Positions 14,115 to 56,579 of a stretch of DNA of 64,000 nucleotides are shown piece by piece. The stretch is from positions 32,001 to 96,000 of IMG/VR virus record IMGVR_UViG_3300002835_000030. One strand, written 5' to 3'. Below the pieces are notes generated by a model, which saw only the letters and a program-made list of their open reading frames with translations, made no database searches and was not told where the DNA came from. Positions within the stretch are counted from its first letter, which is position 1, and each line of letters starts with the position of its first letter. Both the position numbers and the translations under genes were made by a program. This DNA is from a virus.

Positions 14115-14486
14115 ATGAAAGAGGAGTTGATATTAAAATTTATAACACTACAACAACAATTTAGATTATTACATTGGCAAACTAAATCACATGCACAACA
14201 TATCGCCTATGGCGATACTTACAATTCATTAGAAGATCTAATAGATACTTTTATAGAAATTTATATGGGTAAGTACGGTAGAGTGGAGTTCACTAATGGG
14301 GAAGGTAATATAACACTTTTTAATTTATCTAATTTAGATTTAAATACATTTATTAAAGATAATATAAAATGGGTGAAAAGTTTAGGGGAAAAGTTAAATC
14401 AAACTAACGATACTGATTTATTAAATGTCAAAGATGAAATTATGGCGTCATTAAATAAATTAAGATATCTATTAACTTTAAAATGA
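14115..14486 (+). CDS. Dps/ferritin-like four-helix protein (DUF5856-like)
   Basis: LLHWQTKSHAQH.A.G..Y..L..LID.FIE..MGKYGR and L.N..DEI......L.YLLTL. Confidence 0.7.
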   Translation: MKEELILKFITLQQQFRLLHWQTKSHAQHIAYGDTYNSLEDLIDTFIEIYMGKYGRVEFTNGEGNITLFNLSNLDLNTFIKDNIKWVKSLGEKLNQTNDTDLLNVKDEIMASLNKLRYLLTLK

Positions 14487-14896
14487 TGAAAAATATAATC
14501 AGAAAAATTTTAAAAGAAGAAACTAGCCATAGTTATAAAGAATTGGGTAACCCTAATGGTTTTGAGGGTACCGATGTATATGACACAAAAGATGAAATTG
14601 CTATAGGACTATCAATAAAGGCATTAAATCATTTAAATTCCGCACTTAGAGATATTGAATCTGCATTAGAAAATGTAGAAAATGAAAACATTAGACGTGT
14701 TTTGGAAAAAGTTAAATCTATGTTGATTGTAGACTATGGTATACAAGGTGCTTTCGAACAATCAATATCAAATGGTAAACGACATAATACAATAATTAAA
14801 ATGTTGAGTGATGTCATCGGTAAAAACAGTAATAACAACTGGAACTTTAATCTAAATGGTGGGCACGAACCTAAAGCCCCTGAAGGTGTTTTTTAA
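14483..14896 (+). CDS. Hypothetical protein with IRKILKEE leader
   Basis: 137 aa ORF overlapping the upstream stop codon. Confidence 0.7.
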   Translation: MMKNIIRKILKEETSHSYKELGNPNGFEGTDVYDTKDEIAIGLSIKALNHLNSALRDIESALENVENENIRRVLEKVKSMLIVDYGIQGAFEQSISNGKRHNTIIKMLSDVIGKNSNNNWNFNLNGGHEPKAPEGVF

Positions 14897-15128
14897 CTAA
14901 TTCTACCGCCTCATTTATTGTCTGAAATGATTTTTCAGGTAAAAACGCAGTTTTTTCAATTAAAATTGCCGGTAAATATTCGTTATTTACTTTCTTAGAG
15001 AATTTTTCATATAGTTCTTCGTGTTTATCAACATCTAACTCAATAAAATCAATATTATTTTCTTGTAATTGATTTTTTAAGTTGTCGCAATGTGGACATC
15101 CTTTCATTGAAAATACTTTAACTTTCAT
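14871..15128 (-). CDS. Glutaredoxin / NrdH-like redoxin
   Basis: VFSMKGCPHC CxxC motif, 85 aa, cis-Pro motif YLP. Confidence 0.85.
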   Translation of the reverse strand: MKVKVFSMKGCPHCDNLKNQLQENNIDFIELDVDKHEELYEKFSKKVNNEYLPAILIEKTAFLPEKSFQTINEAVELVKKHLQGL

Positions 15129-26277: not shown

Positions 26278-26375
26278 ATTTTTTGTTGTAAAACAACAAA
26301 AATAATTTTTTCAAAAAAATCTGCATATTTATTATAAAAAGAAATTAATAATAAATATTTAAAAAATAAAATTAA

Positions 26376-29289: not shown

Positions 29290-29787
29290 ATGAAAATTAA
29301 GAAAAATGGTAAGGTGATTACTTTAACAGAATCTGATTTAATCAGAATTGTTAAGAAATTAATGGTAGAACAAAATAATAATGGTTTAACGACATTGACT
29401 AAAATAGAGGATGATATAAAAACCAACCCTGAAAGTGTTAATAAAGGTTTATTATCTCCATCATCAGGGTTGATGATAACAAGTGATAATGGGTGGAAAG
29501 TTTATGAAAAAGGTAATATAAAAGGGATTACTCGAAGTTTTGTGGGGAAACATTCGGGTAGTCCCCTAAATTTAGGTGATGTTAATACATCCATTCAAAT
29601 ATCCTCACAAAACAATGGAACAATTAGTATATCAATTCAGATGAAGGGAAAGAGTAAAAATATTACTTTAGGAAATGAGGTTAAAACCCTTAACGAATTA
29701 AACAAATCAATTTTAGAGAAATTAAGTAGTGACGAAAAGCAAATGTTTGGGTTTGATACCCCAAAGTTGTCTAAAAACAGTAAATAA
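29290..29787 (+). CDS. Hypothetical protein with LTESDL.RIVK leader
   Basis: 165 aa; N-terminus shared with 29809..29994. Confidence 0.75.
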   Translation: MKIKKNGKVITLTESDLIRIVKKLMVEQNNNGLTTLTKIEDDIKTNPESVNKGLLSPSSGLMITSDNGWKVYEKGNIKGITRSFVGKHSGSPLNLGDVNTSIQISSQNNGTISISIQMKGKSKNITLGNEVKTLNELNKSILEKLSSDEKQMFGFDTPKLSKNSK

Positions 29788-29808
29788 AAAAATATAAAAT
29801 TAAAAATT

Positions 29809-29994
29809 ATGAAAATAAAGAAGGATGGAAAAGTGATTAATCTGACGGAATCAGATTTAAAAAGAATTGTAAAAGAACAAAGTAGTGAATCTTTAAAAAT
29901 GCAAGGTGTTGACGCAGATGATTCACATATGGAACGTATTACCGATTTAGAGTTTAGAGTTGGTAAAATAGAAAAAATGATGAAGGGGAAATAA
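29809..29994 (+). CDS. Small protein with LTESDL.RIVK leader and short coiled coil
   Basis: 61 aa; leader nearly identical to that of the 29290 ORF. Confidence 0.75.
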   Translation: MKIKKDGKVINLTESDLKRIVKEQSSESLKMQGVDADDSHMERITDLEFRVGKIEKMMKGK

Positions 29995-30026
29995 AAACGT
30001 TTCGAAAAAAATAATTTTAATATTCT

Positions 30027-30054
30027 AAACCTATCGAATTCGATAGGTTTTTTT
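30027..30054 (+). terminator. Rho-independent terminator
   Basis: AAACCTATCG-AATT-CGATAGGTTT followed by TTTT. Confidence 0.8.
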
Positions 30055-30078
30055 ATTTTATACGAATATTTATATTGT

Positions 30079-30903
30079 ATGAATATTAAACTTACAGAGT
30101 CACAATATAAACTATTAAAAGAGTTTAAGAAAAAAGCGTATTCTTTTGATTGGGATGATAACATATTGATTATGCCCACAATAATACATTTGGATTATAG
30201 AGTTGGTAATACGGACACATATGTACCGGTTTCAGTTTCCACAGAACAATTTAGAAATGTTAGACATAAATTAGGTAATGAGTTTAGATATCTTAATAAT
30301 GATATCACACAATCATTTAAAGATTTCAGAGATTATGACGCATTTATAGAAGACACAAAAAAGGCGTTATATCAAAATAAAATCGGACCTAGTTTTCAAA
30401 AATTTAAAGAGTCGTTAATAAGTGGTAGTGACTTTTCTATAATCACCGCCAGATCCAATCCACCACAGGCGATTAAAGAAGGTATTAAAGTAATTATAAA
30501 TAATGCGTTTAGTAATGTGGAAAGAGAAGAGATGGAAAAGAATCTTAATGGTTTATCTATAGATGAGTATTTAAATCTACAAGATTATCATCCTGTATCT
30601 TCATCAGAGTTCGCCAAACAATTCGGATTAGAAAGTGTGTCAACTAGTCCCGAAGAAGGAAAAAAGATTGCTTTTAAGAGTTTTGTAGATAGAGTGGTAC
30701 AACAAATATCGAATATAAAAGATGATGGAGAATTTGAGGGTATTAGTGTTGGATTTAGTGACGATGATTTAGAAAATGTAGAAGTAGTAGAAGATTTAAT
30801 TAGAGATGAATTACAAGTCTTGTATCCCGAAATTAATTTTATCGTATATGATACTTCAGACCCAAAAGACACAAAAAAGAAAAGGATTATTATAAAAAAA
30901 TAG
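30079..30903 (+). CDS. HAD-superfamily phosphatase-like protein with LTESQY leader
   Basis: FDWDDNI (DxD motif I), IITARS (II), K (III), FSDDD (IV). Confidence 0.7.
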   Translation: MNIKLTESQYKLLKEFKKKAYSFDWDDNILIMPTIIHLDYRVGNTDTYVPVSVSTEQFRNVRHKLGNEFRYLNNDITQSFKDFRDYDAFIEDTKKALYQNKIGPSFQKFKESLISGSDFSIITARSNPPQAIKEGIKVIINNAFSNVEREEMEKNLNGLSIDEYLNLQDYHPVSSSEFAKQFGLESVSTSPEEGKKIAFKSFVDRVVQQISNIKDDGEFEGISVGFSDDDLENVEVVEDLIRDELQVLYPEINFIVYDTSDPKDTKKKRIIIKK

Positions 30904-32497
30904 AATAAACCAAATTACCACAATCATATATTCTATTATAACCTCTTTCAAACATAATTTCTTGTTCAGTTTTATTGGAATCAAAACCTTCTGAAACTAA
31001 TATATCTTTTCTAAATTTATATCTATGTTCTCTTTTTTTGTTGACTACATAATGATAGTTTGGTTTAGATGTATTTTTATAAACAAAACCTAATTTATTA
31101 TATAGATTACCATCACTCCATCTTATATCTGCATAACTAGTAATATTCGTTGGGTTATTCTCTTTAATAAAATGTTTTAATAATTTAGACGGACCACCAA
31201 TAACAGAATGATTTATTTTATTACAAAAACGTAATAACTCCCATTCGTAGTTAGAACCATTCATAACATTACGTCCTTTACCAAATGTCATTATAGATAC
31301 AAGTTCATCATTATAATACAAACCATAATTTATTTTACTACCAACACTACCTTGTATATGATTGTCATTTAGGAATTTAGTTTTTATTTTGGTTGGTACT
31401 TTTTTAATAATACATTTTCTACCATATATCCTATTATCTGTCAATCCCAATAGATTTTTAATTCTACTTTTCACAATTTCTTTCTTATTGTCCCATTCGT
31501 CCTCAAATATGTGAATTAAACGTATCCCTTCTTTATTACATTCGTTTGTTTTATCGATATGATATATTTTGTCTTTGAATAAGTCACAATGATAATATAA
31601 ACCATTTAACTCAAAACCTATATTCTTCTCTTTAACTAATATATCAATTTCTTTTCCATTTAATATATCTCTATCACTTGTTGTCACATCAAAACCTAAA
31701 TCACTTATAAAATCAGATAACTCTTTCTCTTTGATTGATCTTAACTCACTCACAGGATTACATAGGGTACAACAATTTAAATTATTGTCAAAACGATAGA
31801 ATAATAAACTTCTGTCAATGTCATAGTTTTGATTACACTTATCACATTCTAATGTAACATAACTACCCCTATCATTTATTATTTTTAATGTCTTATACTT
31901 TTTATTGAATTTTTTTAGTTTCGATATGATATTACTTTCTCTATTATTTTCTAATAATAAATTAGTGGATACACCATATTTTCTAATATTAGTTTTTCTC
32001 TTTTTTTCTTTTATACTATCTAACTTATTTGGGTTGGTGACACCTAATTTATTTTTAGTTTTATCTATAATGTATTTAGAGTCTTTGAATATGTTATCTA
32101 CACCATATCTTTCTAAATTTGTCTCCCTAACTTTATCCTTAACTGTTTTAGTATTCATAGGATGTCCACCATATTTTTTAGTGAATGTATCCTTTATCTT
32201 TTCTCTCTGTTCCTTAGATTGGTTATTACATTTTACTGAACAATATACTCCATACCCCTCTTTTAAACTTTTTTTAAATTTTAATTCCTTACCACAATTC
32301 CCACATTCTGGTTGTTCTATTATATTATTGATAAATAAAAATATCTTTTCTTTGAAGGGTAAATCATTGTTTAATTTATTTTTTTCCACAAATAAATTAA
32401 TATTGTCGAAAATATCTTTATAATTTTTTTTAATAAAATCTTCTCTGGTTTTATTTCCCGATTTATTATCTGATAAAAAAAATTTTTTATAATCCAT
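30890..32497 (-). CDS. Hef-like free-standing endonuclease (Zn fingers, Vsr/PD-(D/E)xK-like domain, GNAT-like C-terminus)
   Basis: CGNC..YCSVKC, repeated T...[KR]YG, CDKC/CTLC, EIDI..GFELNGLYYH..IFEDEW, NHIQG..WELLRF..SYAD.RWS.G.LY..LGF. Confidence 0.75.
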   Translation of the reverse strand: MDYKKFFLSDNKSGNKTREDFIKKNYKDIFDNINLFVEKNKLNNDLPFKEKIFLFINNIIEQPECGNCGKELKFKKSLKEGYGVYCSVKCNNQSKEQREKIKDTFTKKYGGHPMNTKTVKDKVRETNLERYGVDNIFKDSKYIIDKTKNKLGVTNPNKLDSIKEKKRKTNIRKYGVSTNLLLENNRESNIISKLKKFNKKYKTLKIINDRGSYVTLECDKCNQNYDIDRSLLFYRFDNNLNCCTLCNPVSELRSIKEKELSDFISDLGFDVTTSDRDILNGKEIDILVKEKNIGFELNGLYYHCDLFKDKIYHIDKTNECNKEGIRLIHIFEDEWDNKKEIVKSRIKNLLGLTDNRIYGRKCIIKKVPTKIKTKFLNDNHIQGSVGSKINYGLYYNDELVSIMTFGKGRNVMNGSNYEWELLRFCNKINHSVIGGPSKLLKHFIKENNPTNITSYADIRWSDGNLYNKLGFVYKNTSKPNYHYVVNKKREHRYKFRKDILVSEGFDSNKTEQEIMFERGYNRIYDCGNLVYSIFL

Positions 32498-32581
32498 TTT
32501 TTTAGAAATTAAGATATTTATTAATAAAGGTAAGAAAAAAAAATGATACTTACAATAATAAATATTAAAAAACTATAAAAA

Positions 32582-33070
32582 ATGGCAGATTTATTAATGA
32601 GAATGCCTGTTCCTTACGAACCGTTAAGAAAGAATAGGTTTATTTTGAGATTCCCAGATGAATTGGGGATTCAAGAATGGTGGGTTTCTACAACATCTAG
32701 ACCTAAGTATACAAGTACGGAAGTAGAAATTCCTTTCTTAAATACATCTACCTATGTAATCGGTAGATTTCAATGGGAAACTATTTCAGTTACATTTAGA
32801 GATCCAATCGGACCTTCCGCAACACAGGCGTTGATGGAGTGGGTACGTTTACATTCTGAATCAGTAACGGGTAGACAAGGTTACGCTGCGGGGTATAAGA
32901 AAGACGTAGAATTAGAAATGTTAGACCCAACTGGTGTTGTTGTTCAGAAATGGATTTTACAAGGAACTCAATTGAATGACGCAGATTTCGGAGGTTTAGA
33001 TTATTCATCTTCAGATTTGGCGGATATTTCTTGCACGCTCCGGTTTGATAGGGCGATAAATGTATTTTGA
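32582..33070 (+). CDS. Tail tube protein (T4 gp19-like)
   Basis: YEPLRKNRF, GRFQWETISVTFRDPI, YKKDVELEMLDPTG.VV.KW.L.G, L.FDRA; downstream of the sheath gene. Confidence 0.9.
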   Translation: MADLLMRMPVPYEPLRKNRFILRFPDELGIQEWWVSTTSRPKYTSTEVEIPFLNTSTYVIGRFQWETISVTFRDPIGPSATQALMEWVRLHSESVTGRQGYAAGYKKDVELEMLDPTGVVVQKWILQGTQLNDADFGGLDYSSSDLADISCTLRFDRAINVF

Positions 33071-33095
33071 GATTCCTTCATCGAATATAAGACTT

Positions 33096-33135
33096 TCCCT
33101 TTTATGTATATATTTATATATAAAAGGGATTTTTT
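33096..33135 (+). terminator. Terminator hairpin with an ATATTTAT motif across its loop
   Basis: 15-bp stem (33096-33110 with 33115-33129), T6 tail, then ATG at 33136. Confidence 0.65.
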
Positions 33136-34011
33136 ATGCAATTTAAATGTGAAATATGTGATAAGGAATATGATACATTATGGAGTTTATCTTCTCATAA
33201 TGTTAAAAAACATAAAATTAAACCGCAAGAAACTTTTATTAAACATAATTTAGAAGGTAAAACACCTGAATGTAAATGTGGTTGTGGTGAGACACCAACA
33301 TTCTTAGGAATTCAAAAAGGGTTTAGAGATTATATTAGAGGTCACGCATCTAGAATTAACAATAATTGGGGGCATAATGTTGACGCACAGAAAAAATCTA
33401 AAGATACACAAAGAAAGTTATATGGGTCAGGTGAAATTATAATATGGAATAAAGGGTTAACCAAAGAAGATGACGAAAGGTTAGATTATGGGGATAAGAT
33501 AAGTTCTAATTTAGAAAGGAATGAAAAAATTTCAAAGTCACTTAAGGGTAGAAAACGTCCACAGTATGTTTTAGATAAACTTAATGAAGGTATGAGAGAA
33601 TACTGGAGTAAGGAAGAGAACAAAGAAAAACAAAGTATTTTACAATCCAAAAGAGTAAAAAATAACCATCACAAAAATAAAACTTTATTAGAAAATTATT
33701 TTGAGTCTATACTAATAAAATTAAAGTTAAAATATATATCTCAATATACAATATGTGGTTATAATTTTGATTTTTATTTACCTAAATATGACTTAGTTAT
33801 TGAGGTTGACGGTGATTTTTTTCACTGTAACCCAAAAAAATATCCAGAAGGTCCTATATATGAATCACAAACTAATACAATAAATAATGATAAAATAAAA
33901 AATAATATCTGTGATAAAAGTAATGGTATAAGATTACTAAGGTTTTGGGAAGACGACATCAACAATAATATTGAGTGGGTGATTGATGAGATTAAAAAAC
34001 ATATAATTTAA
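33136..34011 (+). CDS. Free-standing endonuclease (C2H2 finger, CxCGC, NUMOD3-like, DUF559/Vsr-like)
   Basis: CEIC...H....H, CKCGCG, WNKGLT, KISKSLKGRK, FDFY...VIEVDGDFFH...LLRFWE. Confidence 0.8.
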   Translation: MQFKCEICDKEYDTLWSLSSHNVKKHKIKPQETFIKHNLEGKTPECKCGCGETPTFLGIQKGFRDYIRGHASRINNNWGHNVDAQKKSKDTQRKLYGSGEIIIWNKGLTKEDDERLDYGDKISSNLERNEKISKSLKGRKRPQYVLDKLNEGMREYWSKEENKEKQSILQSKRVKNNHHKNKTLLENYFESILIKLKLKYISQYTICGYNFDFYLPKYDLVIEVDGDFFHCNPKKYPEGPIYESQTNTINNDKIKNNICDKSNGIRLLRFWEDDINNNIEWVIDEIKKHII

Positions 34012-34079
34012 AATTTTTTTTCACATAACCTTTTTATCCTAACAAATAATCCGTATATTTATAAAAAAAATATAAGTAT

Positions 34080-35660
34080 ATGGATTTTTCTTTTTTCACC
34101 ACTGACAATAAATCTGGTTATAAGACTAACGAAAAGTGGTTTTCAAAAAATTATGTGGGTGAATATGATAATATTATAAATTATTGTTCTCCGTATGAAT
34201 TATCAACCTTTAAAGAAAAGATATGGTTTTATTATCATAAACTATTAGAAGTCCCAAATTGTAGTTGTGGAAAAAAAACTAAATTCAGTAATAGGTTAGA
34301 TAGGGGTTATAATGAATTTTGTTCACTTTCTTGTTTCAACAGTAATAACAGTGAAATGGTGAAAAGGATAAAAGATACGAATCAAAAAAAATATGGTGTA
34401 GATTACTATACACAAACTGAAGATTTCATAAAAAAACAAAAAAATACAAAAAAGGAAAAATACGGTGATGAAAACTACAATAATAAAGAAAAAATGTTGT
34501 CAACTAAATCATCTAAGTATGGAAATATAGGTTATAATAATTTTGATAAATATAAACAAACTTGTATGAATCTTTATGGTGTTGACAATTATTCGAAATC
34601 AGAAGAATTTAGACAAAAACTTAAAGAAAAAATAAATGAGAGGTATGAAGAATTAAACATTATTAATATTTCAAATGACTTAACATCTTTATCGATTATT
34701 TGTGATAAATGTGATGAAACATACGAAATTACACAAAATTTACTAAGGGAACGAAAAAAACATAACTATGAGTTATGTACAAACTGTAACCCAATAGGTA
34801 TGTCATCATCCTCTTCATATGAAAACGAATTATATGAAATTTTAACCCATTGGGGAGTTGGGGTGGAAAGACATAAAAAAATAAAAGGTGATAATAGAGA
34901 AATAGATTTGTTTATACCGAGTCACAACATAGGTATAGAAATTAATGGGTTATATTGGTACAATGAACTTTTTATTAATAAAGATTATCATTTTGAAAAA
35001 ACAAAATTATGTAGAGATAATGGTATTGATTTAATTCACGTTTTTGAGGATGAGTGGTTATGGAAAAAAGATATTGTATTATCTGTATTAAAAAATAGAC
35101 TTAATAACATAAATAAAAAAATTTATGGTAGGAAGTGTGATATTGTTGAGATTAGTTCCTCTATTAGTAAAACATTTTTAGATGAAAATCATCTTCAGGG
35201 TAACGTAAATACAACATTAAAATTTGGGTTATTACATAATGATGAATTGGTGTCAGTAATGACATTTGGGAAACGTAATGGTATAGGTAATGGTGAGGAA
35301 TGGGAATTAATAAGATTTTCCAATAAAATAAATTATAATGTGATAGGTGGGGGATCAAAATTATTTAAGTATTTCTTAAAAAAAATTAACCCTAAAATAG
35401 TAAAATCGTATTCCGATAATAGATGGTTTAGTGGGGGATTATATGAAAATTTAGGTTTTAAATATATACACGAAACAAAACCTAATTACTGGTATGTGAA
35501 AAATGATATGAGATATCATAGACTAAACTTCAAAAAAAATCGGTTGGTTGGTGAAGGTTTTGATAAAAATAAAACTGAAAAACAAATTATGTTCGATAGA
35601 AAAATATATAGGGTGTACGATTGTGGTAATAAACTATGGTTGTACGAACATATCATATAA
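34080..35660 (+). CDS. Hef-like free-standing endonuclease, paralog of 30890..32497
   Basis: Same architecture; shared N-terminal FF..DNKSG.KT.E and C-terminal YDCGN. Confidence 0.75.
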   Translation: MDFSFFTTDNKSGYKTNEKWFSKNYVGEYDNIINYCSPYELSTFKEKIWFYYHKLLEVPNCSCGKKTKFSNRLDRGYNEFCSLSCFNSNNSEMVKRIKDTNQKKYGVDYYTQTEDFIKKQKNTKKEKYGDENYNNKEKMLSTKSSKYGNIGYNNFDKYKQTCMNLYGVDNYSKSEEFRQKLKEKINERYEELNIINISNDLTSLSIICDKCDETYEITQNLLRERKKHNYELCTNCNPIGMSSSSSYENELYEILTHWGVGVERHKKIKGDNREIDLFIPSHNIGIEINGLYWYNELFINKDYHFEKTKLCRDNGIDLIHVFEDEWLWKKDIVLSVLKNRLNNINKKIYGRKCDIVEISSSISKTFLDENHLQGNVNTTLKFGLLHNDELVSVMTFGKRNGIGNGEEWELIRFSNKINYNVIGGGSKLFKYFLKKINPKIVKSYSDNRWFSGGLYENLGFKYIHETKPNYWYVKNDMRYHRLNFKKNRLVGEGFDKNKTEKQIMFDRKIYRVYDCGNKLWLYEHII

Positions 35661-35678
35661 AAATTATTTAATTTCATA

Positions 35679-35714
35679 AAAAAATCCTTATCATTAGTTT
35701 GGTCGGGATTTTTT
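35679..35714 (+). terminator. Probable terminator
   Basis: AAAAAATCC...GGATTTTTT inverted repeat after the endonuclease gene. Confidence 0.5.
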
Positions 35715-35762
35715 GTTATTTGAGTATATTTATTAGTATATAATAGTATTTAAAAAGATGGT

Positions 35763-36458
35763 ATGAGAAAAATTAATAATATTAATGAACAAATAGGTAG
35801 AATGAAGTCCCTATTTACCGAAGAAAGAATGTTCGGTAATCTTGTGGAACAAGAAGAAAAAGAACTTGAGACTATTGAAATTATAGGAGATACCCCCAAA
35901 GTCAAACAAAATACTGATACACCAAAAGAAACTGAAACTGAAGAAGAAGTTAACTTAGATAAAAGAGGTTGTATAAAACACATAAAAGAAAAATTTAAAG
36001 AAGTTAATAGTTCTGGTGACGCACCAAAATGGAAACTTGATAATCCTAAAAGTGTTAAGACTATTGAATCGTGTTTAAAAACACATTATGAAACATTCCA
36101 AAAAGAGGGAATTTTTAAGGTGGGCGATGAGGCAGAAAAACTAATTGACTTATTGGAATTAAAAATAGAAAAACCTAAAGAGGTTGCGGATAAAGATATC
36201 ATTCAGATTAAAAATGATAAAGGTCGAGTTGTAATGTTGATTAAAAATGTTAAGGATAACCTATATAGATTTAGAGGTAACAAAGGTGAGGTTATATTTG
36301 ATAGTGCGAGGTCAGGTGGAGTAGGAAAGGTTAAATATTTCGATCCTCAGGTAGAAAGGTTTATAAGAAATCAGATGAGTTTGGGTAACAAAAAAATAAC
36401 TATCAACAAAGGAATGAACACTAAAGGACTCGATGTGGGGTCATTTACTGTAAATTAA
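35763..36458 (+). CDS. Hypothetical protein with NEQIGRMKSLF leader
   Basis: 231 aa; leader shared with the 39636 ORF; ATATTTAT at 35726-35733. Confidence 0.75.
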   Translation: MRKINNINEQIGRMKSLFTEERMFGNLVEQEEKELETIEIIGDTPKVKQNTDTPKETETEEEVNLDKRGCIKHIKEKFKEVNSSGDAPKWKLDNPKSVKTIESCLKTHYETFQKEGIFKVGDEAEKLIDLLELKIEKPKEVADKDIIQIKNDKGRVVMLIKNVKDNLYRFRGNKGEVIFDSARSGGVGKVKYFDPQVERFIRNQMSLGNKKITINKGMNTKGLDVGSFTVN

Positions 36459-36461
36459 TAT

Positions 36462-38801
36462 ATGAGTAAAAAAATTATCATATCAGAATCACAGTACAGA
36501 CGTGTCTTTTTAAATGAACAATCTTCTATTGATGATATTATAGTATATTTTAACGAAGATAAGGGTAATGTTATTGAACAAACCGCAAGACTTTATAGAT
36601 TGTGGGCAAATTCTACAAAGCGGTATTCTTACACATACGGTAAGAATAGTTCGTTTGATTTGGACGCTAGTAAAAAACCTGCGAATAGTGGGACATTTGA
36701 TAAGTCTTTTTCTATTGGTAAATCTCAGTTTGATAAAGATTGGTTAATAGTACCTAAAGAAAATGATTTCCTTTTATTCACTAAAGGCGGTAGAACAATA
36801 TATTCTGTTTTAACTAAAAAAGTTTTACCTAATGAGTTATCAGAACAAGATATTTTCTATCGTTTAGAGAGGGGTGAAGTTATAAAAGATGTTAAAACTA
36901 TATCAGAAATTAAAAATATTTATTCTTCTCCTTACACTAAGAAAGCAACTAATGTAGTGCAAAAAGAAAAAGAATCTGACGTAGAAAACAAATTAGTTTC
37001 TTTTAGAGATACTATAGATTATTTAGAATCACTTGGGTTAGGGGTAAATGGTTTAATCCCATATAAGAAAAATCAAACCTTTAATCAATCGGAAGATATC
37101 CCCTCTACGAACTATTTATTTGCAAAAACCGCGATTAATGGAATTAAGTATTTAACTGATTTAATTGCGGGCAAAGTAATAACAGGTAGTAAGGGTGCGA
37201 CAAGTATATGTGTTACAAAATTAGATAGTGGGTGTAAGAGTAGCAATCCATATGTCACATCAAGTACTTACAACATAAACTTATCTAGAATTTTATCCAG
37301 TTCACCCATAGAAACAATATATGGTAAATATCCCGCATCTTGGATAATGTATGATTATGGGTTTTATTTTAATTGGGAAAAAATTAAAAAAGATCTGGAA
37401 AGTACATTCCAAACAGATAAATACGCATATAAAAGTAGTTTATTTTCTGATGGGTGGTGGAATTATTTTACTCAAACATATGGTGTAGGATCTAAAGGTA
37501 GTTTCTCACAAATAAAATCGGCAATAAATAAAATATCTTATGATGATTTTGATAAGGTAAGTACTATTAATAAATATGATGATAATAAAAGTGTTTGGGG
37601 GTATTTAGGTGATTGTTTTAGTGATTATCACTGTGTTTTAGATATAGCATCAATAGCCACTTTGGCTATTCCCGGTGTTGGTTTAGCAATTAGTTCGGGA
37701 ATCGACTTTGTAAATGCAGCATCCTATGGTGTTGAAGCATATAATGCCGATACTGAAGAAGAAAGGGATGGGGCATTAATTGCTGGTACACTTACTTTGT
37801 TTGGTGGTTTATTAGGTGGTGGAGTTGGACAAACTAAGAGATTAGTGACTAGGGGTAACGCAAACCCTAATATTTATCAGTACGCTGATGAAGTTATGGA
37901 TAGGGTGAAAAAAGAAATTCCTGATGCTAAAAATCTAAAAGAACTTGACCCAACTAAAGGTAGTCTCATACAAAGAAACTTTAATGAAAAACAAATACCT
38001 GAAAATTTAACTAAAATCTATAAAGAAACTGCGGAAAAATATGGATTAAAAGAAAATGATATTTTAGTCGCACATGACATACTTAAAGATTTTAGTAAGA
38101 TTGATATTAATCTTGCGAAAAAATATACTGAAGCTTTGAACGCTTTAACCAAAAGGGTCGATAGAGCGAGTTTATTTAAATTCGCCAAGAGACCTGAGTT
38201 TCAAAAAATGTTAATAAATAATAATGGTGATGTTATTGTAACATTAAATAAGTATATGAAACTAGTTGCAAAAAAAGAAGCGATAATGGAGGGTACATTA
38301 TTCGTAGCATTAACAGTGGCAATGGAAGAACCAGAAGTACAACAATGGTTAGCAACAAAAATTATAGATTTAAAAGCAAAACTTAATCCTACAGTTAAAA
38401 ACATTGTCCAATCGGAAGGTTATGATTGGGAAACAGTTAAGGAAATTTTTAATTCTGATGGTAGTGTGGGAGATAACACATTATTAAACCAGGCATGGGA
38501 AAGAGGTTGGAGACCTTGGCCTAAAGGGGAAGAACCTAATGAGGAGAGTGTTTTTGAAAATGGTATATTATGGTTATTCAAAAACCCAAAATACCAAACA
38601 GAGACATTTAAAAATAATTTTAGTGGGTTTGGTATCGATAATGTGGTGAGAGAGGTTAAACCTGAAAAAGATGAAGATAGAAGAGAAGGTGTGATATATT
38701 ATGACACTAAAGAAGAATTAGAACTACGTAATAATATCGATGATATTATTACTGATGAAGAAATAGAAGCAACTGCGAAAATTTTAGATCAATATCTTTA
38801 A
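36462..38801 (+). CDS. Large hypothetical protein with ISESQY leader and central hydrophobic Gly/Ala-rich segment
   Basis: 779 aa; VLDIASIATLAIPGVGLAISSGIDFVNAASY...LIAGTLTLFGGLLGGG. Confidence 0.75.
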   Translation: MSKKIIISESQYRRVFLNEQSSIDDIIVYFNEDKGNVIEQTARLYRLWANSTKRYSYTYGKNSSFDLDASKKPANSGTFDKSFSIGKSQFDKDWLIVPKENDFLLFTKGGRTIYSVLTKKVLPNELSEQDIFYRLERGEVIKDVKTISEIKNIYSSPYTKKATNVVQKEKESDVENKLVSFRDTIDYLESLGLGVNGLIPYKKNQTFNQSEDIPSTNYLFAKTAINGIKYLTDLIAGKVITGSKGATSICVTKLDSGCKSSNPYVTSSTYNINLSRILSSSPIETIYGKYPASWIMYDYGFYFNWEKIKKDLESTFQTDKYAYKSSLFSDGWWNYFTQTYGVGSKGSFSQIKSAINKISYDDFDKVSTINKYDDNKSVWGYLGDCFSDYHCVLDIASIATLAIPGVGLAISSGIDFVNAASYGVEAYNADTEEERDGALIAGTLTLFGGLLGGGVGQTKRLVTRGNANPNIYQYADEVMDRVKKEIPDAKNLKELDPTKGSLIQRNFNEKQIPENLTKIYKETAEKYGLKENDILVAHDILKDFSKIDINLAKKYTEALNALTKRVDRASLFKFAKRPEFQKMLINNNGDVIVTLNKYMKLVAKKEAIMEGTLFVALTVAMEEPEVQQWLATKIIDLKAKLNPTVKNIVQSEGYDWETVKEIFNSDGSVGDNTLLNQAWERGWRPWPKGEEPNEESVFENGILWLFKNPKYQTETFKNNFSGFGIDNVVREVKPEKDEDRREGVIYYDTKEELELRNNIDDIITDEEIEATAKILDQYL

Positions 38802-38810
38802 CATTATATT

Positions 38811-38984
38811 ATGAACGAAAAAAGAGAGAGAATTTTAAAAATAAGAAAAAAAATACTAGATTATAATAGATTTATATTAGAGTATGGTTTTAATCCAGAA
38901 AGAGATATATTTATTAATGAAGACATAACATCTATTTTAGAAGAATTAGAAGAATTAGAAAAAGAAATTAATAATGAAGAATAA
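38811..38984 (+). CDS. Small hypothetical protein (57 aa, not in the ORF track)
   Basis: MNEKRERILKIRKKILDYNRFILEYGFNPERDIFINEDITSILEELEELEKEINNEE fills the gap between flanking ORFs. Confidence 0.55.
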   Translation: MNEKRERILKIRKKILDYNRFILEYGFNPERDIFINEDITSILEELEELEKEINNEE

Positions 38985-39597
38985 TTTATTAACAGAAATA
39001 AAACACATTAAACACCTTATGGGGTTAAATGAGGCGAATAATCAAGAATGTGAAAAACAACTTGAGGATGCAGGATATGTGGTATACAATAGGGTGGAAT
39101 TACAAAAAATGGATGCAGACTGTGAGGAAAGGCCTAAAATAAAATGTGTGAAAAAATGGTTAGATGACAATAACATAAAAAATTATTCAATAGGTAAACA
39201 TGCGGGAATATGTTATATAGTTGCACAAAGTGAAAACAAAATAACGCATACTGTTGGTACTAAATCTAAAGAGATATATAAAAAAACATATGCCTTTTGG
39301 GATAATGGGGATATTACATATGTCAGTACTTTTGATGTATTACAAAAATGGAATGAAGGTGAATCTGATGAAAAAACGTTATCACAAGTTCAATTTAAAG
39401 GTAAATATGTGTGTGGCGGATCAGATATTAATTTTGAAAATGTTACGTATCAGGGTGTCTATGAATTTGATAAATATGATGATTTAATAAAAAGTAATAC
39501 TATTGCTGGGAGTTTTATGACTAAAAAATCTGATGGAAATGATTACGTCAGATTGGTAAATTATCATGATACAATTGGTACACTTAACCCTTTTTAA
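38974..39597 (+). CDS. Hypothetical protein with LLTEIKHIKHLMGLNE leader
   Basis: 207 aa ORF; ATATTTAT at 38907-38914. Confidence 0.75.
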   Translation: MKNNLLTEIKHIKHLMGLNEANNQECEKQLEDAGYVVYNRVELQKMDADCEERPKIKCVKKWLDDNNIKNYSIGKHAGICYIVAQSENKITHTVGTKSKEIYKKTYAFWDNGDITYVSTFDVLQKWNEGESDEKTLSQVQFKGKYVCGGSDINFENVTYQGVYEFDKYDDLIKSNTIAGSFMTKKSDGNDYVRLVNYHDTIGTLNPF

Positions 39598-39635
39598 GTT
39601 AATTAAAATTATTATCTATTATACAATATTAAAAT

Positions 39636-41423
39636 ATGAAAAGAAAATACAATACATTAAACGAAGAAATGAACCGAATGAAATCACTATTCGGTGAATC
39701 TAGATTATATGGAAATCTTGAAGATAAAAAAGAAAATATAATTACTGAACAATATAGGTTTTTTAGTGATTTGACTTCATTATATAAAGTAACACTTAAG
39801 TCTTTTGCCGATTTAGGTAATTTTACGAAGTTTATAAATACAGAAATTAGAAATGTAGATGATATCATAAAACATTTAGACGAATTTGAGGCTTTATGGA
39901 GAGTGGTTTCACCAGACGTTGCAAACTGGCCTGGTGTAAAAAAGAATTTAATTAGACTTAAACAACTTAGTGATTCAGATAAATTGAAAGATATACCGGA
40001 GGATGTGTGGGTAAGTCAAGTTTTAAATGGATTTCCAGAAAAAGGTGGTATGAGAGACATAGTTAATGACATGTGGAGAATAGCGAATAATAAAAATCCT
40101 TATTTACCTCAAAAAGTCGAGAATAGAATCGTTACGACTGATCCTAATACAGGCACATTACTTATTGGCACTAAAAATGAGGGGGGTGGTATTGTTTATA
40201 AAAATGAGGAGGGTAAAGTTGTTATGGTTGAAAAAGATCCCGATATTAAAGTAGATGGTAGTCGTACTAATATAAAACCTGATATAGAAGATGTTGATTT
40301 TATTGAAGTTAAACCAGATACACCATTAGATGATTTAAATGGTAAAACTGTTGCGGCGTCTGAGGAAAATATTAAAAATGTGGTTGACGCTGTTGGTGAT
40401 AAGATTGCAGGTGAGACTAAAAATGGGAATAAAGTTGTATTTACTATTACAGGTGAAGGAGAAGAAGGTGTTAGGGCAGCACAAGAAATGATGGATAAAA
40501 TCACAAGCAATAAAGGTGGGGCTAGTACAGGTGATGAGGTATTAGAAGATATGACTCAGGAAGTTACAGAGAGAACAGGGGAAAATCCTGAAGTAGTTAA
40601 AAATAAACTTCAAGATAAACTTAAAAACTTTGCTTGGGGGACAAGATTTTGGTGGAACCCTACCACTTATGGGCCACCTGAGAAATGGTTGGCAGAAAAA
40701 TGGGGACAAAATCTGTCATGGAAACCAGATGCGAATAGCTGGATGAATCGTAGAACCGCTAAAGTTGTATTTAGGTTATTTCTTGTTGGTGGGACATATG
40801 AAATCGTAAAAACAGGCTTGGATCCCGATAGAGATTTTTACGCAGGTGGTAAGAATAATATATTAGTACACAGTTGGAATGATCTCACTAGATTAATTGG
40901 TATGGCGATAGACGGAATCAATAGTGGTGCGATTAAAGACATGACATTACAGATGGTGGAAGATGGATTAATGAATATTGGAGGTACTGATATTAAAATA
41001 GTTAAGCAAAATGTTTTAGATAAAGCAATGAATGAAATACAATATATAAATAGTAAAGAACTTGATGAAGATGGACAACGAAAAAGTATGATGACATGTA
41101 CTACACTTTCTAAAATGACAACGGATGATGAGGTTGTAAAATTTATCATTAAAAAACACGCAGATAAAGGAATCGCAGATGAGTTAGAAAGACTTAAAGG
41201 GGAATTGGGTGGAACAGGATCGGAGAAATATCGAGAGGCTCGTGATATGATGGAACAATATTTTGATACGATTTTGAAAACTAGTTTGGCGGATGATAAT
41301 TTAAAACAGGCAATCGGTGAAGCGCGAATGGCATGTGAAGAGGCGGCTAAAGAACAATCTGAAATCGATGATATGAGTACTGAAGAATATACTGTCACTA
41401 TCTATGGTGGAGGTGGTATTTAA
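39636..41423 (+). CDS. Large hypothetical protein with LNEEMNRMKSLF leader
   Basis: 595 aa; one moderately hydrophobic segment VVFRLFLVGG. Confidence 0.75.
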   Translation: MKRKYNTLNEEMNRMKSLFGESRLYGNLEDKKENIITEQYRFFSDLTSLYKVTLKSFADLGNFTKFINTEIRNVDDIIKHLDEFEALWRVVSPDVANWPGVKKNLIRLKQLSDSDKLKDIPEDVWVSQVLNGFPEKGGMRDIVNDMWRIANNKNPYLPQKVENRIVTTDPNTGTLLIGTKNEGGGIVYKNEEGKVVMVEKDPDIKVDGSRTNIKPDIEDVDFIEVKPDTPLDDLNGKTVAASEENIKNVVDAVGDKIAGETKNGNKVVFTITGEGEEGVRAAQEMMDKITSNKGGASTGDEVLEDMTQEVTERTGENPEVVKNKLQDKLKNFAWGTRFWWNPTTYGPPEKWLAEKWGQNLSWKPDANSWMNRRTAKVVFRLFLVGGTYEIVKTGLDPDRDFYAGGKNNILVHSWNDLTRLIGMAIDGINSGAIKDMTLQMVEDGLMNIGGTDIKIVKQNVLDKAMNEIQYINSKELDEDGQRKSMMTCTTLSKMTTDDEVVKFIIKKHADKGIADELERLKGELGGTGSEKYREARDMMEQYFDTILKTSLADDNLKQAIGEARMACEEAAKEQSEIDDMSTEEYTVTIYGGGGI

Positions 41424-55662: not shown

Positions 55663-55690
55663 ATTCCTAATATTTATTAATAAAGGTATT

Positions 55691-55877: not shown

Positions 55878-56579
55878 ATGAGTAAGAAAAATTTATTAAG
55901 CGAAGAATTAAAAAGATATAAACAGTTATTGGAATATACTTTTTATGTGTCAGAAGAAGATGAACCTAAAGATGTTAATGGTAATTTATTGTTGGATGAT
56001 ATGATAACTGAACAAGATCCACCAGAAGAAGATCCTTTTGGGGGAACTGAATCTACACCAGAAGAAGAAGGCGGTATGGGTACAGATACTGAAGATATGA
56101 CAGTAACAGATCAAGAGGATGAAATCAATCCCTTTGGTGATACTGAAGTAGAAGATGAATTTGCAACAGAAGAACCATTAAGTGGAGAAGATACTGTAGA
56201 AGTAGATGTTACTGATATTGTAGATAAAACTGAAGAAACTAAAACTTCTGTAGATAGTATGAGTACTAAGATGGATGATCTCTTATCTAAATTATCTGAA
56301 TTAGAATCACAAGTTTCTGGTATGGATAATGTAATCAATAAAATCGATGAGTTAGAAAAAGAAATCGAAAGAAGAAACCCAACACCTGTAGAGAGATTAG
56401 AAATGAGATCGATGGATTCATTTCCATATAGTGTTAAATTAACTGATTTTTGGAAAGACAAAGAAGGGTATAATTCGTCCGAAGTAGAAGAAGAAAAAGA
56501 ATACACATTGACACAAAGTGATGTTGACAATTTTAATGAAAAAGAAATAAGATCATCCTTTGGTTCTAATATGAGATAG
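55878..56579 (+). CDS. Acidic coiled-coil protein, possible prohead core/scaffold component
   Basis: LLSEELKRYKQLL leader, long D/E-rich linker, heptad region, PTPVERLEMRS.DS.PY. Confidence 0.6.
   Translation: MSKKNLLSEELKRYKQLLEYTFYVSEEDEPKDVNGNLLLDDMITEQDPPEEDPFGGTESTPEEEGGMGTDTEDMTVTDQEDEINPFGDTEVEDEFATEEPLSGEDTVEVDVTDIVDKTEETKTSVDSMSTKMDDLLSKLSELESQVSGMDNVINKIDELEKEIERRNPTPVERLEMRSMDSFPYSVKLTDFWKDKEGYNSSEVEEEKEYTLTQSDVDNFNEKEIRSSFGSNMR

What the first reader, a model, noticed from the sequence alone, without database searches (positions are those of the whole stretch)
29290..41423. Shared N-terminal leaders on unrelated proteins: candidate capsid-addressing and protease-release system for injected cargo
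Seen: many ORFs with unrelated bodies begin with one of two related 15-35 aa amphipathic leaders that end in [LIV]-x-E(Q). Type A ([IL][TS]ES[DQ][LY]) occurs at 29290 (LTESDLIRIVKKLMVEQ), 29809 (LTESDLKRIVKEQ), 30079 (LTESQYKLLKE) and 36462 (ISESQYRRVFLNEQ). Type B occurs at 35763 (INEQIGRMKSLFTEERMFGNLVEQ), 39636 (LNEEMNRMKSLFGESRLYGNL...ITEQ), 38974 (LTEIKHIKHLMGLNE) and 55878 (LSEELKRYKQLLE). Looser copies occur at 14483 (IRKILKEE), 3964(-) (LAKSLILE) and the C-terminus of 4904(-) (TEEVKRIKNLI). No such leader is seen on replication enzymes or tail parts. Established: T4 internal proteins carry an N-terminal capsid-targeting sequence, and T4 gp21 and phiKZ gp175 prohead proteases cleave after Glu (T4: [IL]-x-E). 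Inference: a modular tag loads a variable payload (HAD phosphatase, WYL domain, a membrane-active protein, unknown proteins) into the prohead, is clipped off, and the cargo is ejected into the host.
Basis: partly seen in the sequence, partly recalled or inferred. Interest (0 to 1): 0.88.

Follow-up and report, generated by a model that had tools for sequence, protein, structure and literature searches.

The report
Shared address leaders on phage proteins
An uncultured giant T4-like phage starts many unrelated proteins with one of a few conserved short leaders that look like an enlarged version of phage T4's "load into the head, then cut off" tag, though packaging and cutting have not been shown.

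Summary
The core observation is real and stronger than reported. The window is part of a 128.6-kb fragment, about 40% of a ~320-kb uncultured T4-like phage. Five window ORFs carry strong leaders: class A at 29290 and 29809, class B at 35763 and 39636, short class A2 at 36462. ORFs 30079, 38974 and 14483 (a fourth class, C) are weaker members supported by relatives. 55878 is doubtful. 3964(-) and 4904(-) are not supported.

In 1,238 ORFs of this phage and its relatives, 209 of 215 leader-profile hits start within the first 25 residues, on 49 unrelated body clusters. Homologous bodies carry different leaders. A class-B profile finds 399 protein clusters in public data. Synonymous codons at conserved leader positions are random, so selection acts on the peptide.

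Leaders begin and end with [LI]-x-E. The same motif lies at conserved sites in the relatives' capsid and scaffold proteins, and those relatives encode a T4-type (S77) prohead protease. Capsid targeting with proteolytic release is the best reading (~0.5). No data show packaging, cleavage or ejection, and most tagged genes lie among tail genes. The HAD body is inconclusive; WYL has no support. This is a new, much expanded variant of a known kind.

The parts
29290..29787 (+). ORF of 165 aa. Class-A leader in residues 1-28 (nt 29290-29373), ending L-M-V-E-Q. The body is an orphan.
   Evidence: Profile A, E 1.2e-18, residues 1-31. BLAST hits to more than 25 other proteins cover only residues 1 to about 30-55. 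No Pfam or PHROG family.
29809..29994 (+). ORF of 61 aa. Class-A leader in residues 1-24 (nt 29809-29880), ending I-V-K-E-Q.
   Evidence: Profile A, E 1.0e-18. A weak match to phrog_6420 covers residues 4-38, largely the leader.
30079..30903 (+). ORF of 274 aa. Short A2-like leader in residues 1-16 (nt 30079-30126). The body has HAD-like invariant motifs, but the fold is not confirmed.
   Evidence: Profile A2, E 2e-3. 33 further distinct orthologous sequences found in the sheath loci; 28 of them plus the window protein were aligned. AF2 mean pLDDT 68.3, with residues 1-20 below 50. Foldseek found nothing at E <= 0.001. VIA-align best HAD-type row is the T4 Pnkp phosphatase at Z 5.3. A TATTTAT motif lies directly upstream.
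35727..35740 (+). Promoter-like motif (core TATTTAT), 36 nt upstream of ORF 35763.
   Evidence: The same motif precedes the sheath, tube, neck and baseplate-wedge genes here, and the protease gene in G003. That it is a late promoter is inference.
35763..36458 (+). ORF of 231 aa. Class-B leader in residues 1-30 (nt 35763-35852), ending L-V-E-Q, followed by an acidic linker.
   Evidence: Profile B, E 8.6e-20. The body family carries B leaders in relatives and in public proteins.
36462..38801 (+). ORF of 779 aa. Class-A2 leader in residues 1-20 (nt 36462-36521), ending L-N-E-Q. A hydrophobic segment starts near residue 392.
   Evidence: Profile A2, E 2.5e-14. Homologous bodies carry B leaders in P0079, P0126 and P0154. 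Hydropathy 1.98 at residue 392. The Atlas search gave no informative match.
38974..39597 (+). ORF of 207 aa. Degenerate short class-B leader in residues 1-20 (nt 38974-39033), ending L-N-E, followed by a Cys-rich module.
   Evidence: Orthologues carry clear B leaders. In three relatives this gene is fused in frame behind the 36462 homologue and keeps its Met and its leader.
39636..41423 (+). ORF of 595 aa. Class-B leader in residues 1-28, then a second I-T-E-Q junction at residues 36-39 (nt 39636-39752).
   Evidence: Profile B, E 3.0e-18. One relative joins a different leader at the same L-[IL]-[ST]-E-Q junction. AF2 mean pLDDT 59.8, with most of residues 1-58 below 50. No fold match.
14483..14896 (+).
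   Evidence: The class-C pattern matched 13 of 13 times in the first 15 residues and 0 times elsewhere, on 6 body clusters. It joins the linked set of N-termini in G003.
55878..56579 (+). ORF of 233 aa with a leader-like N-terminus. Membership is doubtful.
   Evidence: Smith-Waterman score 47 against 39636. No profile hit. The G003 orthologue keeps a family-specific N-terminus.

Best explanation
The leaders are N-terminal address peptides of a T4-type head-assembly system, much expanded in a clade of uncultured phages of about 320 kb.

Shown:
- At least four leader classes (A, A2, B, C) of about 12-39 residues sit at the extreme N-terminus of dozens of unrelated proteins per genome.
- The peptide itself is under purifying selection.
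- Leaders are exchanged between homologous bodies.
- Each leader starts with an [LI]-[TSN]-E motif and ends with an [LIV]-x-E motif at a fixed offset. Sequence similarity stops right after that.

Inferred:
- During late infection the leader docks the protein to the scaffolding core of the prohead.
- The S77 prohead protease, a gp21 relative, then cuts after the Glu of these motifs, as it would in the capsid and scaffold proteins.
- The freed cargo stays in the head and leaves with the DNA at the next infection.
- Cargo with peptidoglycan-binding domains or hydrophobic segments would act in the cell envelope.
For: 1. Position and modularity. 209 of 215 profile hits start at or before residue 25, on 49 body clusters, and 4 of those clusters carry more than one leader type. 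One 143-147-aa family carries either A or B. The 36462 family carries A2 or B, and the 39636 family uses another leader at the same junction.

2. Reach. 58 of 80 related sheath loci hold at least one tagged ORF. The class-B profile finds 399 clusters at E <= 1e-3 among 1.84 billion representatives, and 147 of the best 150 start at or before residue 5.

3. Selection on the peptide. The same codon is used at identical residues in 0.613 of cases against 0.553 expected for A, and 0.577 against 0.575 for B.

4. The junction motif sits at a fixed offset.

5. Protease. PF03420 is found in 3 of 5 large related contigs. 448 viral stretches encode relatives of it. The motifs around the presumed catalytic His and Ser align with T4 gp21.

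6. The same motif in head proteins. All 17 distinct capsid N-termini hold L-L-[TN]-E-[AS] between the ENQ and VRR motifs, which is where T4 gp23 has L-T-E|A at residue 65. The scaffold has invariant I-T-E-S and L-N-E-S.

7. The profile found 6 leader-A hits in the 80 head loci; the 4 distinct ones lie between the portal-side core genes and the protease gene.

8. The leader is not packed against the body in either AF2 model.

9. Cargo. 10 of 123 class-B proteins have PG_binding_1 right after the leader. The ordinary endolysin of G003 has no leader.

10. A promoter-like motif is shared with virion genes.

11. Precedent. T-even internal proteins are diverse, with only the targeting sequence conserved (PMC3012670, passages). 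T4 propeptides are 10-20 residues and all these proteases cut after Glu (PMC5694885, passages).
Against: - There is no direct evidence of virion location or of cleavage. No cultured relative was found.
- The window's own contig lacks the portal, protease and scaffold genes. It starts inside the capsid gene.
- Tagged genes are dense around the sheath, tube and presumed tape-measure genes: 189 tagged ORFs lie in the 80 sheath loci and 58 of these loci hold at least one. They are rare near the head genes (6 profile hits in 80 loci). Four tagged families are syntenic core genes of the tail module.
- The leaders are 2-4 times longer and far more conserved than a T4-type tag needs. They have no sequence similarity to T4's tags or to this clade's own head proteins (all profile scores 5.4 bits or lower).
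- The residue after the junction Glu is most often Gln, Glu or Asp. The candidate capsid and scaffold sites have Ala or Ser there.
- The capsid cleavage site is ambiguous. The alignment pairs T4's site with S-F-E-T instead.
- Body pI matches the proteome background and is not basic.
- Up to 44 of 269 ORFs in G003 share such N-termini, which is many for head cargo.
Confidence: 0.5

Rival explanations
1. The leaders are virion-assembly handles that are not removed by the head protease. They would dock proteins elsewhere in the particle, for example in the tail-tube lumen, at the baseplate hub or on an assembly chaperone. Such proteins would be delivered ahead of the DNA, as payload signals do in extracellular contractile injection systems.
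For: The genes cluster between the sheath, tube and presumed tape-measure genes. Four tagged families are conserved in synteny with tail genes. PG-binding and hydrophobic cargo suits proteins that enter the envelope first. Leader length (28-39 residues) and strong conservation suggest a specific binding interface rather than a cleavage tag. The contractile-injection payload signal is recalled knowledge and comes from no call.
Against: The conserved Glu motifs at both ends of the leader, and the abrupt end of similarity right after them, have no role in this model. None of the recognised tail parts (sheath, tube, wedge, neck) carries a leader. Leader genes also occur inside head clusters and far from tail genes in G003. 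A tail lumen filled with cargo would have to clear before the DNA can pass.
Confidence: 0.2
2. The leaders are a shared N-terminal module of intracellular, non-virion proteins. They could be an amphipathic helix for membrane or partner binding, for oligomerisation or for regulated turnover, used by many accessory or host-takeover proteins.
For: Tagged ORFs make up 20 of 331 ORFs (profile hits) to 44 of 269 ORFs (linked N-termini) in G003. 14 of the 20 profile-tagged ORFs lie outside the sheath-tail region, several among unannotated small genes and metabolic genes. The bodies are nearly all of unknown function. The predicted leader is a free amphipathic helix.
Against: A PG-binding domain is useless in the cytoplasm without an export signal, and the leaders have no hydrophobic core. 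The promoter-like motif is shared with virion genes. The fixed Glu junctions and the presence of a Glu-specific head protease point the other way. In-frame fusions keep an internal leader.
Confidence: 0.15
3. The shared N-termini are only a by-product of gene duplication and cassette recombination in hypervariable regions and have no address function.
For: Tandem arrays of small leader-A genes lie next to the sheath gene. Leader-only minigenes of 42 aa and gene fusions exist.
Against: Synonymous sites are randomised while the residues stay fixed. Invariant Leu uses five codons, and Ser uses both TCN and AGT. This excludes recent conversion and shows long-term selection on the peptide. Hundreds of clusters keep the leader at residue 1.
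Confidence: 0.05

Closest known systems
Capsid targeting sequence (CTS) of phage T4 internal proteins IPI, IPII, IPIII and Alt, and the short propeptides of gp24, gp22 and others, removed by prohead protease gp21
   Same: A short N-terminal peptide is shared by otherwise unrelated, fast-evolving proteins and ends in hydrophobic-x-Glu. The phage has a T4-type capsid protein, scaffold and S77 protease. The cargo genes are scattered outside the head cluster. The T4 record gives IPII and IPIII with the same first ten residues ending I-A-E, IPI with I-T-E at residues 17-19, and gp23 with L-T-E at residues 63-65. The papers describe diverse internal proteins with only the CTS conserved (PMC3012670, passages) and propeptides of 10-20 residues (PMC5694885, passages).
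   Different: There is no sequence similarity to the T4 tags. There are at least four classes rather than essentially one. Leaders run to 39 residues and hold two Glu motifs. Dozens of tagged genes occur per genome and hundreds of cargo families in public data. Most are encoded in the tail module. The residue after the junction Glu is mostly Gln, Glu or Asp. Function is untested.
Propeptides of head and ejection proteins of giant phages phiKZ, 201phi2-1 and SPN3US
   Same: These are giant phages with many head-internal proteins, processed after Glu, often at several sites within one propeptide. Paralogues gp53 and gp54 of SPN3US share an identical N-terminal 15 residues. Ejection protein gp47 has a membrane segment (PMC5694885, passages).
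   Different: Those propeptides are mostly over 100 residues and are not a shared portable tag. Their motif is A/S/G-x-E. Those phages lack a recognised gp22-type scaffold. Here the tags are short, portable and conserved across unrelated bodies.
N-terminal payload signals of extracellular contractile injection systems, and the C-terminal cargo-loading peptides of encapsulins (recalled knowledge, no call)
   Same: A short portable peptide directs diverse cargo into a phage-derived container.
   Different: Those signals are not cleaved at Glu, and a T4-type head protease plays no part. Nothing here tests loading into a tube or shell.

Membership tests
T4-type capsid targeting sequence / internal-protein system | A shared short peptide at the extreme N-terminus of otherwise unrelated proteins | tested here: met
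   209 of 215 profile hits start at or before residue 25, on 49 body clusters. 147 of the best 150 class-B hits start at or before residue 5.
T4-type capsid targeting sequence / internal-protein system | The peptide ends in the prohead-protease motif (hydrophobic-x-Glu) | tested here: met
   [LIVM]-x-E sits at a fixed offset in 48 of 48 class-A, 49 of 49 class-B and 26 of 28 class-A2 leaders, against 41% of random windows. This is sequence only; cutting was not shown.
T4-type capsid targeting sequence / internal-protein system | The phage encodes a gp21-type (Peptidase_S77) prohead protease, a scaffold and a gp23-type capsid protein | tested here: inconclusive
   Met in relatives: PF03420 above its cut-off in 3 of 5 large contigs, and a head module in 80 loci. 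The capsid protein matches T4 gp23 at E about 1e-27. The window's own contig has no match, but it is about 40% complete and starts inside the capsid gene.
T4-type capsid targeting sequence / internal-protein system | Sequence similarity to the T4 CTS | tested here: not met
   T4 N-termini read from the T4 record share only the terminal hydrophobic-x-Glu with the leaders. The leaders are 12-39 residues against 10-19.
T4-type capsid targeting sequence / internal-protein system | Tagged proteins are present inside proheads and virions and are trimmed there | not testable with these tools
   No cultured relative was found in 50,697 phage records. No proteome was available.
T4-type capsid targeting sequence / internal-protein system | The leader is sufficient to package a foreign protein | not testable with these tools
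   This needs an experiment.
Sec/Tat-type export signal peptide | A hydrophobic core of about 10-20 residues after a short charged N-region | tested here: not met
   The highest 19-residue hydropathy over a leader is 0.76, in 29290. Class-A and A2 leaders are mostly basic (pI about 9-11) and class-B leaders mostly acidic to neutral (about 4.4-6, some to 9.8); all are strongly charged.
Double-glycine (bacteriocin/RiPP) leader | A leader ending in Gly-Gly or Gly-Ala before a short core peptide | tested here: not met
   The class-A alignment of 31 leaders has no Gly-Gly end. The bodies range from about 20 to 1,175 residues. The family definition is recalled.
HAD phosphatase (body of ORF 30079) | The four HAD motifs on a Rossmann-like fold | tested here: inconclusive
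   Invariant D24-x-D26-D27, T123, K195 and D228-D230 fit the recalled motifs. There is no Pfam family at E <= 0.01 and no Foldseek match at E <= 0.001. The T4 Pnkp phosphatase scores Z 5.3 at rank 30. Model pLDDT is 68.

The most novel reading that the evidence does not exclude
The four or more interchangeable leader classes form an address code. Each class would send its cargo to a different place, copy number or release time in the particle. For example, class A would send small proteins encoded beside the sheath and tube genes to the tail lumen or portal channel. Class B would send large envelope-acting ejection proteins to the head core. On this reading one giant phage sorts 10-16% of its proteome into the virion, and evolution re-addresses a cargo simply by swapping its leader.
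Probability: 0.15. Interest if true: 0.85.

Novelty: new variant of a known kind. Interest (0 to 1): 0.6.

Why it matters
If the leaders are packaging tags, this clade shows how far the T4 internal-protein principle can be scaled. It would have several portable tags, dozens of cargo proteins per genome and hundreds of cargo families in nature, nearly all of unknown function. That marks a large pool of proteins likely injected into host cells: candidates for anti-defence, envelope-breaching and takeover functions. The tags would let such proteins be found from sequence alone in uncultured phages. They would also offer new, longer and apparently very specific tags for loading foreign proteins into phage capsids. 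If the leaders address the tail or another site instead, that would be a new sorting principle for phage particles.

Tried and rejected
- Complex prediction of scaffold + prohead protease + class-B leader gave 'no answer' (score 0.00, mark 0.32). It is evidence neither way.
- A DNA- or RNA-level element, or recent gene conversion, as the cause of the conservation is rejected. Codon choice at conserved residues is near random.
- Composition bias of N-termini is rejected by the shuffled-N-terminus control.
- The idea that a leader copies part of the phage's own scaffold, raised by an earlier scan note, got no support. No profile score against scaffold, capsid, protease, portal or the neighbouring proteins exceeded 5.4 bits. 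By eye, the resemblances of the scaffold tail to class B and of the 296-aa capsid-neighbour protein's N-terminus to class A remain unsupported leads.
- No cultured relatives were found. Megablast of the region and tblastn of 39636, 36462 and a leader-A protein against 50,697 phage records gave no match.
- Body function remains unknown. Pfam on 45 of 49 body representatives gave one family above its cut-off, MORN. PHROGs on 43 of those 45 (the two window ORFs had been scanned) plus five class-B proteins matched named families only through the PG-binding domain. The Atlas search for 36462 was uninformative. The AF2 model of 39636 was poor and had no fold match. PDB sequence searches of neighbours 41466, 45258 and 49060 gave nothing at E <= 0.1.
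- The exact T4 late-promoter octamer is not enriched: 26 matches against 23.5 expected. A different motif with core TATTTAT is the one associated with virion genes.
- A full-text search for five leader strings found 0 papers.
- This scan had no earlier notes on this genome or on this sequence.


Full report
CONTEXT. The window is bases 32001-96000 of a single 128,648-bp virus contig with about 30% G+C. CheckV rates the contig 40% complete. A related 253,879-bp contig (G003) is rated 78% complete, so the full genome is about 320 kb. The gene content is distantly T4-like. It includes a sheath (26376-29231), a tube (32582-33070), gp32-like and UvsX-like proteins, ribonucleotide reductase, a family-B DNA polymerase, baseplate wedge proteins and a neck protein. 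The contig starts inside the major capsid gene: only profile positions 339-407 of 444 are present. It therefore lacks the portal, protease and scaffold genes, and a search for Peptidase_S77 in it found nothing. The sheath protein is at most about 33% identical to any of 50,697 deposited phage records. The finding's region has no nucleotide match there.

THE OBSERVATION IN THE WINDOW. I called 114 ORFs on the contig with a simple longest-ORF rule (ATG starts only, 40 aa or more). A class-B pattern gives 4 against 0. Both patterns were written after seeing the sites, so they overstate the case. An unbiased all-against-all comparison of the first 35 residues of the 104 ORFs of 80 aa or more shows that most strong pairs are whole-length paralogues. 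Only 35763/39636 (score 96) and 39636/55878 (score 47) are leader-type pairs. ORF 29809 was too short to be included in that test. The window alone therefore gives two strong pairs, A (29290/29809) and B (35763/39636). The rest depends on relatives.

RELATIVES. A scan of viral contigs with the sheath protein returned 342 related stretches, of which 80 loci with 69-95% identity were kept. In their 793 ORFs the A pattern occurs 121 times in the first 40 residues and 6 times elsewhere. The B pattern occurs 58 and 18 times. The rest of the sequence holds 6.7 times more residues than the first 40. I built profiles from 31 class-A, 34 class-B and 12 class-A2 distinct leaders. I searched them over 1,238 ORFs (364,220 aa) from the contig, G003 and the 80 loci. 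Hits at E < 0.01 start at or before residue 25 in 96 of 99 cases for A, 70 of 73 for B and 43 of 43 for A2. The 209 tagged ORFs fall into 49 clusters when only the sequence after the leader is compared.

The six internal hits are informative. Three are in-frame fusions of the 36462 homologue with the following 38974 homologue, and the internal leader keeps its Met. The other three are a leader-only remnant at the end of an upstream ORF.

58 of the 80 sheath loci hold at least one tagged ORF (median 3, maximum 7). G003 has 20 tagged ORFs among 331, and 14 of them lie outside the sheath-tail region. In G003, an unbiased comparison of the first 30 residues of 269 ORFs used only pairs with unrelated bodies. 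It gave 70 pairs scoring 45 or more, against 1-3 for internal windows and 0-1 for shuffled N-termini. One linked set holds 44 ORFs, although some links at the threshold used are expected by chance. That set revealed a fourth class, C, to which window ORF 14483 belongs.

Public protein data agree. A class-B profile found 399 clusters at E <= 1e-3 and 227 at E <= 1e-10 among 1.84 billion representatives. 147 of the best 150 start at or before residue 5. A search with the class-A region found 24 proteins among 32 candidates, with unrelated bodies.

WHAT IS CONSERVED.
- Conservation is at the peptide level. At identical residues, two leaders use the same codon in 0.613 of cases for A (0.553 expected from genome codon usage) and in 0.577 for B (0.575 expected). 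The invariant Leu of class A uses five codons, and its Ser uses both TCN and AGT. This rules out an RNA or DNA element and recent gene conversion.
- In class B, four positions are invariant across 40 leaders and six more are at least 90% conserved.
- Every class begins with [LI]-[TSN]-E.
- After the conserved core comes a [LIVM]-x-E at a sharply peaked offset: offset 4 in 40 of 48 class-A leaders, offset 8-9 in 33 of 49 class-B leaders, and offset 4 in 16 of 28 class-A2 leaders. The next residue is most often Gln. Similarity between proteins ends there.

MODULARITY.
- One 143-147-aa family carries either an A or a B leader, joined just before a shared L-D-E-G or I-N-E-G.
- Bodies homologous to 36462 carry A2 or B leaders.
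- The 39636 family includes a relative with a quite different 25-residue leader joined at the same L-[IL]-[ST]-E-Q / G-I-G-R-R junction.
- The body of 29290 is an orphan. Its BLAST hits to more than 25 proteins cover only the leader.

LINK TO HEAD ASSEMBLY.
- Three of five large related contigs encode a Peptidase_S77 protein above the Pfam cut-off. A scan with it found 448 related stretches in viral contigs.
- The head module in relatives reads: terminase, portal, a 253-aa protein, a 144-aa protein, the protease (229 aa), an acidic scaffold (432-541 aa), the capsid protein (about 580 aa) and a 296-aa protein.
- The protease aligns with T4 gp21 and keeps the G-E-x-[ND]-H-P and G-V-S-S-R-G blocks. 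That these blocks hold the catalytic His and Ser is recalled knowledge.
- The capsid protein matches T4 gp23 at E about 1e-27.
- T4 gp23 loses a 65-residue propeptide (PMC5694885, passages). In the T4 record, residues 63-65 are L-T-E.
- All 17 distinct capsid N-termini of the clade hold L-L-[TN]-E-[AS] between the ENQ and VRR blocks that align with T4. The automatic alignment instead pairs T4's site with a conserved S-F-E-T eleven residues further on. So the site is a candidate, not a mapped cut.
- The scaffold alignment has invariant I-T-E-S and L-N-E-S near its C-terminus.
- The profile gave 6 leader-A hits in the 80 head loci. The 4 distinct ones sit between the 253-aa and 144-aa genes or directly before the protease gene.

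EXPRESSION CONTEXT (INFERENCE). A motif with core TATTTAT (full form TATTTATTAATAAA) lies 11-70 nt upstream of the sheath, tube, neck and baseplate-wedge genes and the gene after the capsid gene. In G003 it also precedes the protease gene. It also precedes homing-endonuclease genes and a DnaB-like gene. It precedes tagged ORF 35763 and, in its short form, 30079. In G003 it precedes three tagged genes. Of all sites found, 34 of 63 on the contig and 54 of 86 in G003 lie within 130 nt upstream of a start codon. I read it as the late promoter, but nothing here tests that. The exact T4 octamer is not enriched.

THE CARGO. Bodies are almost all unknown.
- No tagged window ORF has a Pfam family at E <= 0.01, except sub-threshold coiled-coil matches in 55878.
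- One of 45 body representatives has a family above its cut-off, MORN.
- Among the 123 class-B proteins of 100 aa or more (of the 150 retrieved), 10 have PG_binding_1 directly after the leader, 5 have MORN repeats (one of these also has PG_binding_1), 1 has Peptidase_S41 and 108 have nothing.
- The ordinary endolysin of G003 starts its PG-binding domain at residue 3 and has no leader.
- Some bodies have hydrophobic segments. Body pI resembles the proteome background.
- AF2 models of 30079 and 39636 leave the leader as a low-confidence free helix.
- HAD for 30079 is inconclusive. Nothing supports a WYL domain.

INTERPRETATION. The closest known system is the T4 capsid targeting sequence. In T-even phages the internal proteins are highly diverse, with only that sequence conserved (PMC3012670, passages). 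The propeptides are 10-20 residues, and the T4, phiKZ, 201phi2-1 and SPN3US proteases all cut after Glu, often at several sites within one propeptide (PMC5694885, passages). The features shown here fit that logic and extend it: more classes, longer leaders and far more cargo.

Several facts count against a simple transfer of the T4 model:
- Most tagged genes lie in the tail module.
- The leaders are long and strictly conserved.
- The residue after the junction Glu differs from that at the candidate capsid and scaffold sites.
- The leaders show no detectable similarity to any head protein.
- No experimental data exist.

I put capsid targeting with proteolytic release at about 0.5. An uncleaved virion handle for another site such as the tail gets 0.2, a non-virion N-terminal module 0.15, and a functionless by-product 0.05.

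NOVELTY. The kind is known. This is a new and much expanded variant in an uncultured clade. No paper in the searchable library contains the five leader strings I tried. Earlier notes of this scan describe comparable leaders in other uncultured T4-like phages. They are unchecked leads, and they also mean the theme is not unique to this genome.

Noticed in passing
window 30890-32497(-), 33136-34011(+), 34080-35660(+): Three homing-endonuclease genes (two large paralogues with DUF7487, and one Vsr/DUF559-type with a zinc finger) separate the sheath, tube and following tail-module genes. Each is preceded by the TATTTAT motif.
   Followed up: partly
window 32515-32528, 55671-55684, 26326-26339 and others; contig-wide: A 14-nt promoter-like motif (TATTTATTAATAAA, core TATTTAT) lies upstream of virion genes. 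It is not the T4 late octamer, which is not enriched here.
   Followed up: partly
contig bases 594-1457 (outside the window); L088:9328-10218: The 287-296-aa protein encoded just after the capsid gene starts with a basic stretch and then L-L-E-[SA]-L-L. By eye this resembles the first half of leader A, but the profile did not detect it.
   Followed up: partly
L049:13438-16983, L061:5716-9237, L015:9910-13509; protein P0025: In-frame fusions of two neighbouring tagged genes give proteins of 960-1,200 aa that keep an internal Met plus a class-B leader.
   Followed up: partly
L005:4438-4566, L010:2593-2721; L043:10569-11744: Leader-only minigenes (42 aa), and a leader remnant at the end of an upstream ORF, next to the sheath gene.
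   Followed up: no
window 38974-39597 and orthologues (L014:20999-21682, L069:11875-12561, L083:4729-5538): A recurring Cys-rich second module (C-x3-4-C/E ... L-x3-G-Y-x-V) follows directly after class-B leaders in several unrelated-length proteins.
   Followed up: no
window 9037-12951, 15118-19101(-), 60238-62733: The DNA polymerase (1,304 aa), a helicase-like protein (1,327 aa, against 597 aa for the G003 counterpart's first ORF) and the DnaB-like helicase (831 aa) are unusually long. They give mixed PHROG matches, which may point to inteins or insertions.
   Followed up: no
contig bases ~7600-32000 (outside the window) and window 1537-2826(-): A very large block of ORFs on the minus strand, several with glycosyltransferase-type or sugar-nucleotide-enzyme-like N-termini. 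Only two were annotated here (glycosyltransferase PHROG matches); the rest were only read by eye. Unusual in size for a phage.
   Followed up: no
L091:16006-16830(-) in G003: The canonical endolysin (PG-binding plus catalytic domain, no leader) lies right next to a cluster of class-A2 tagged small genes.
   Followed up: partly
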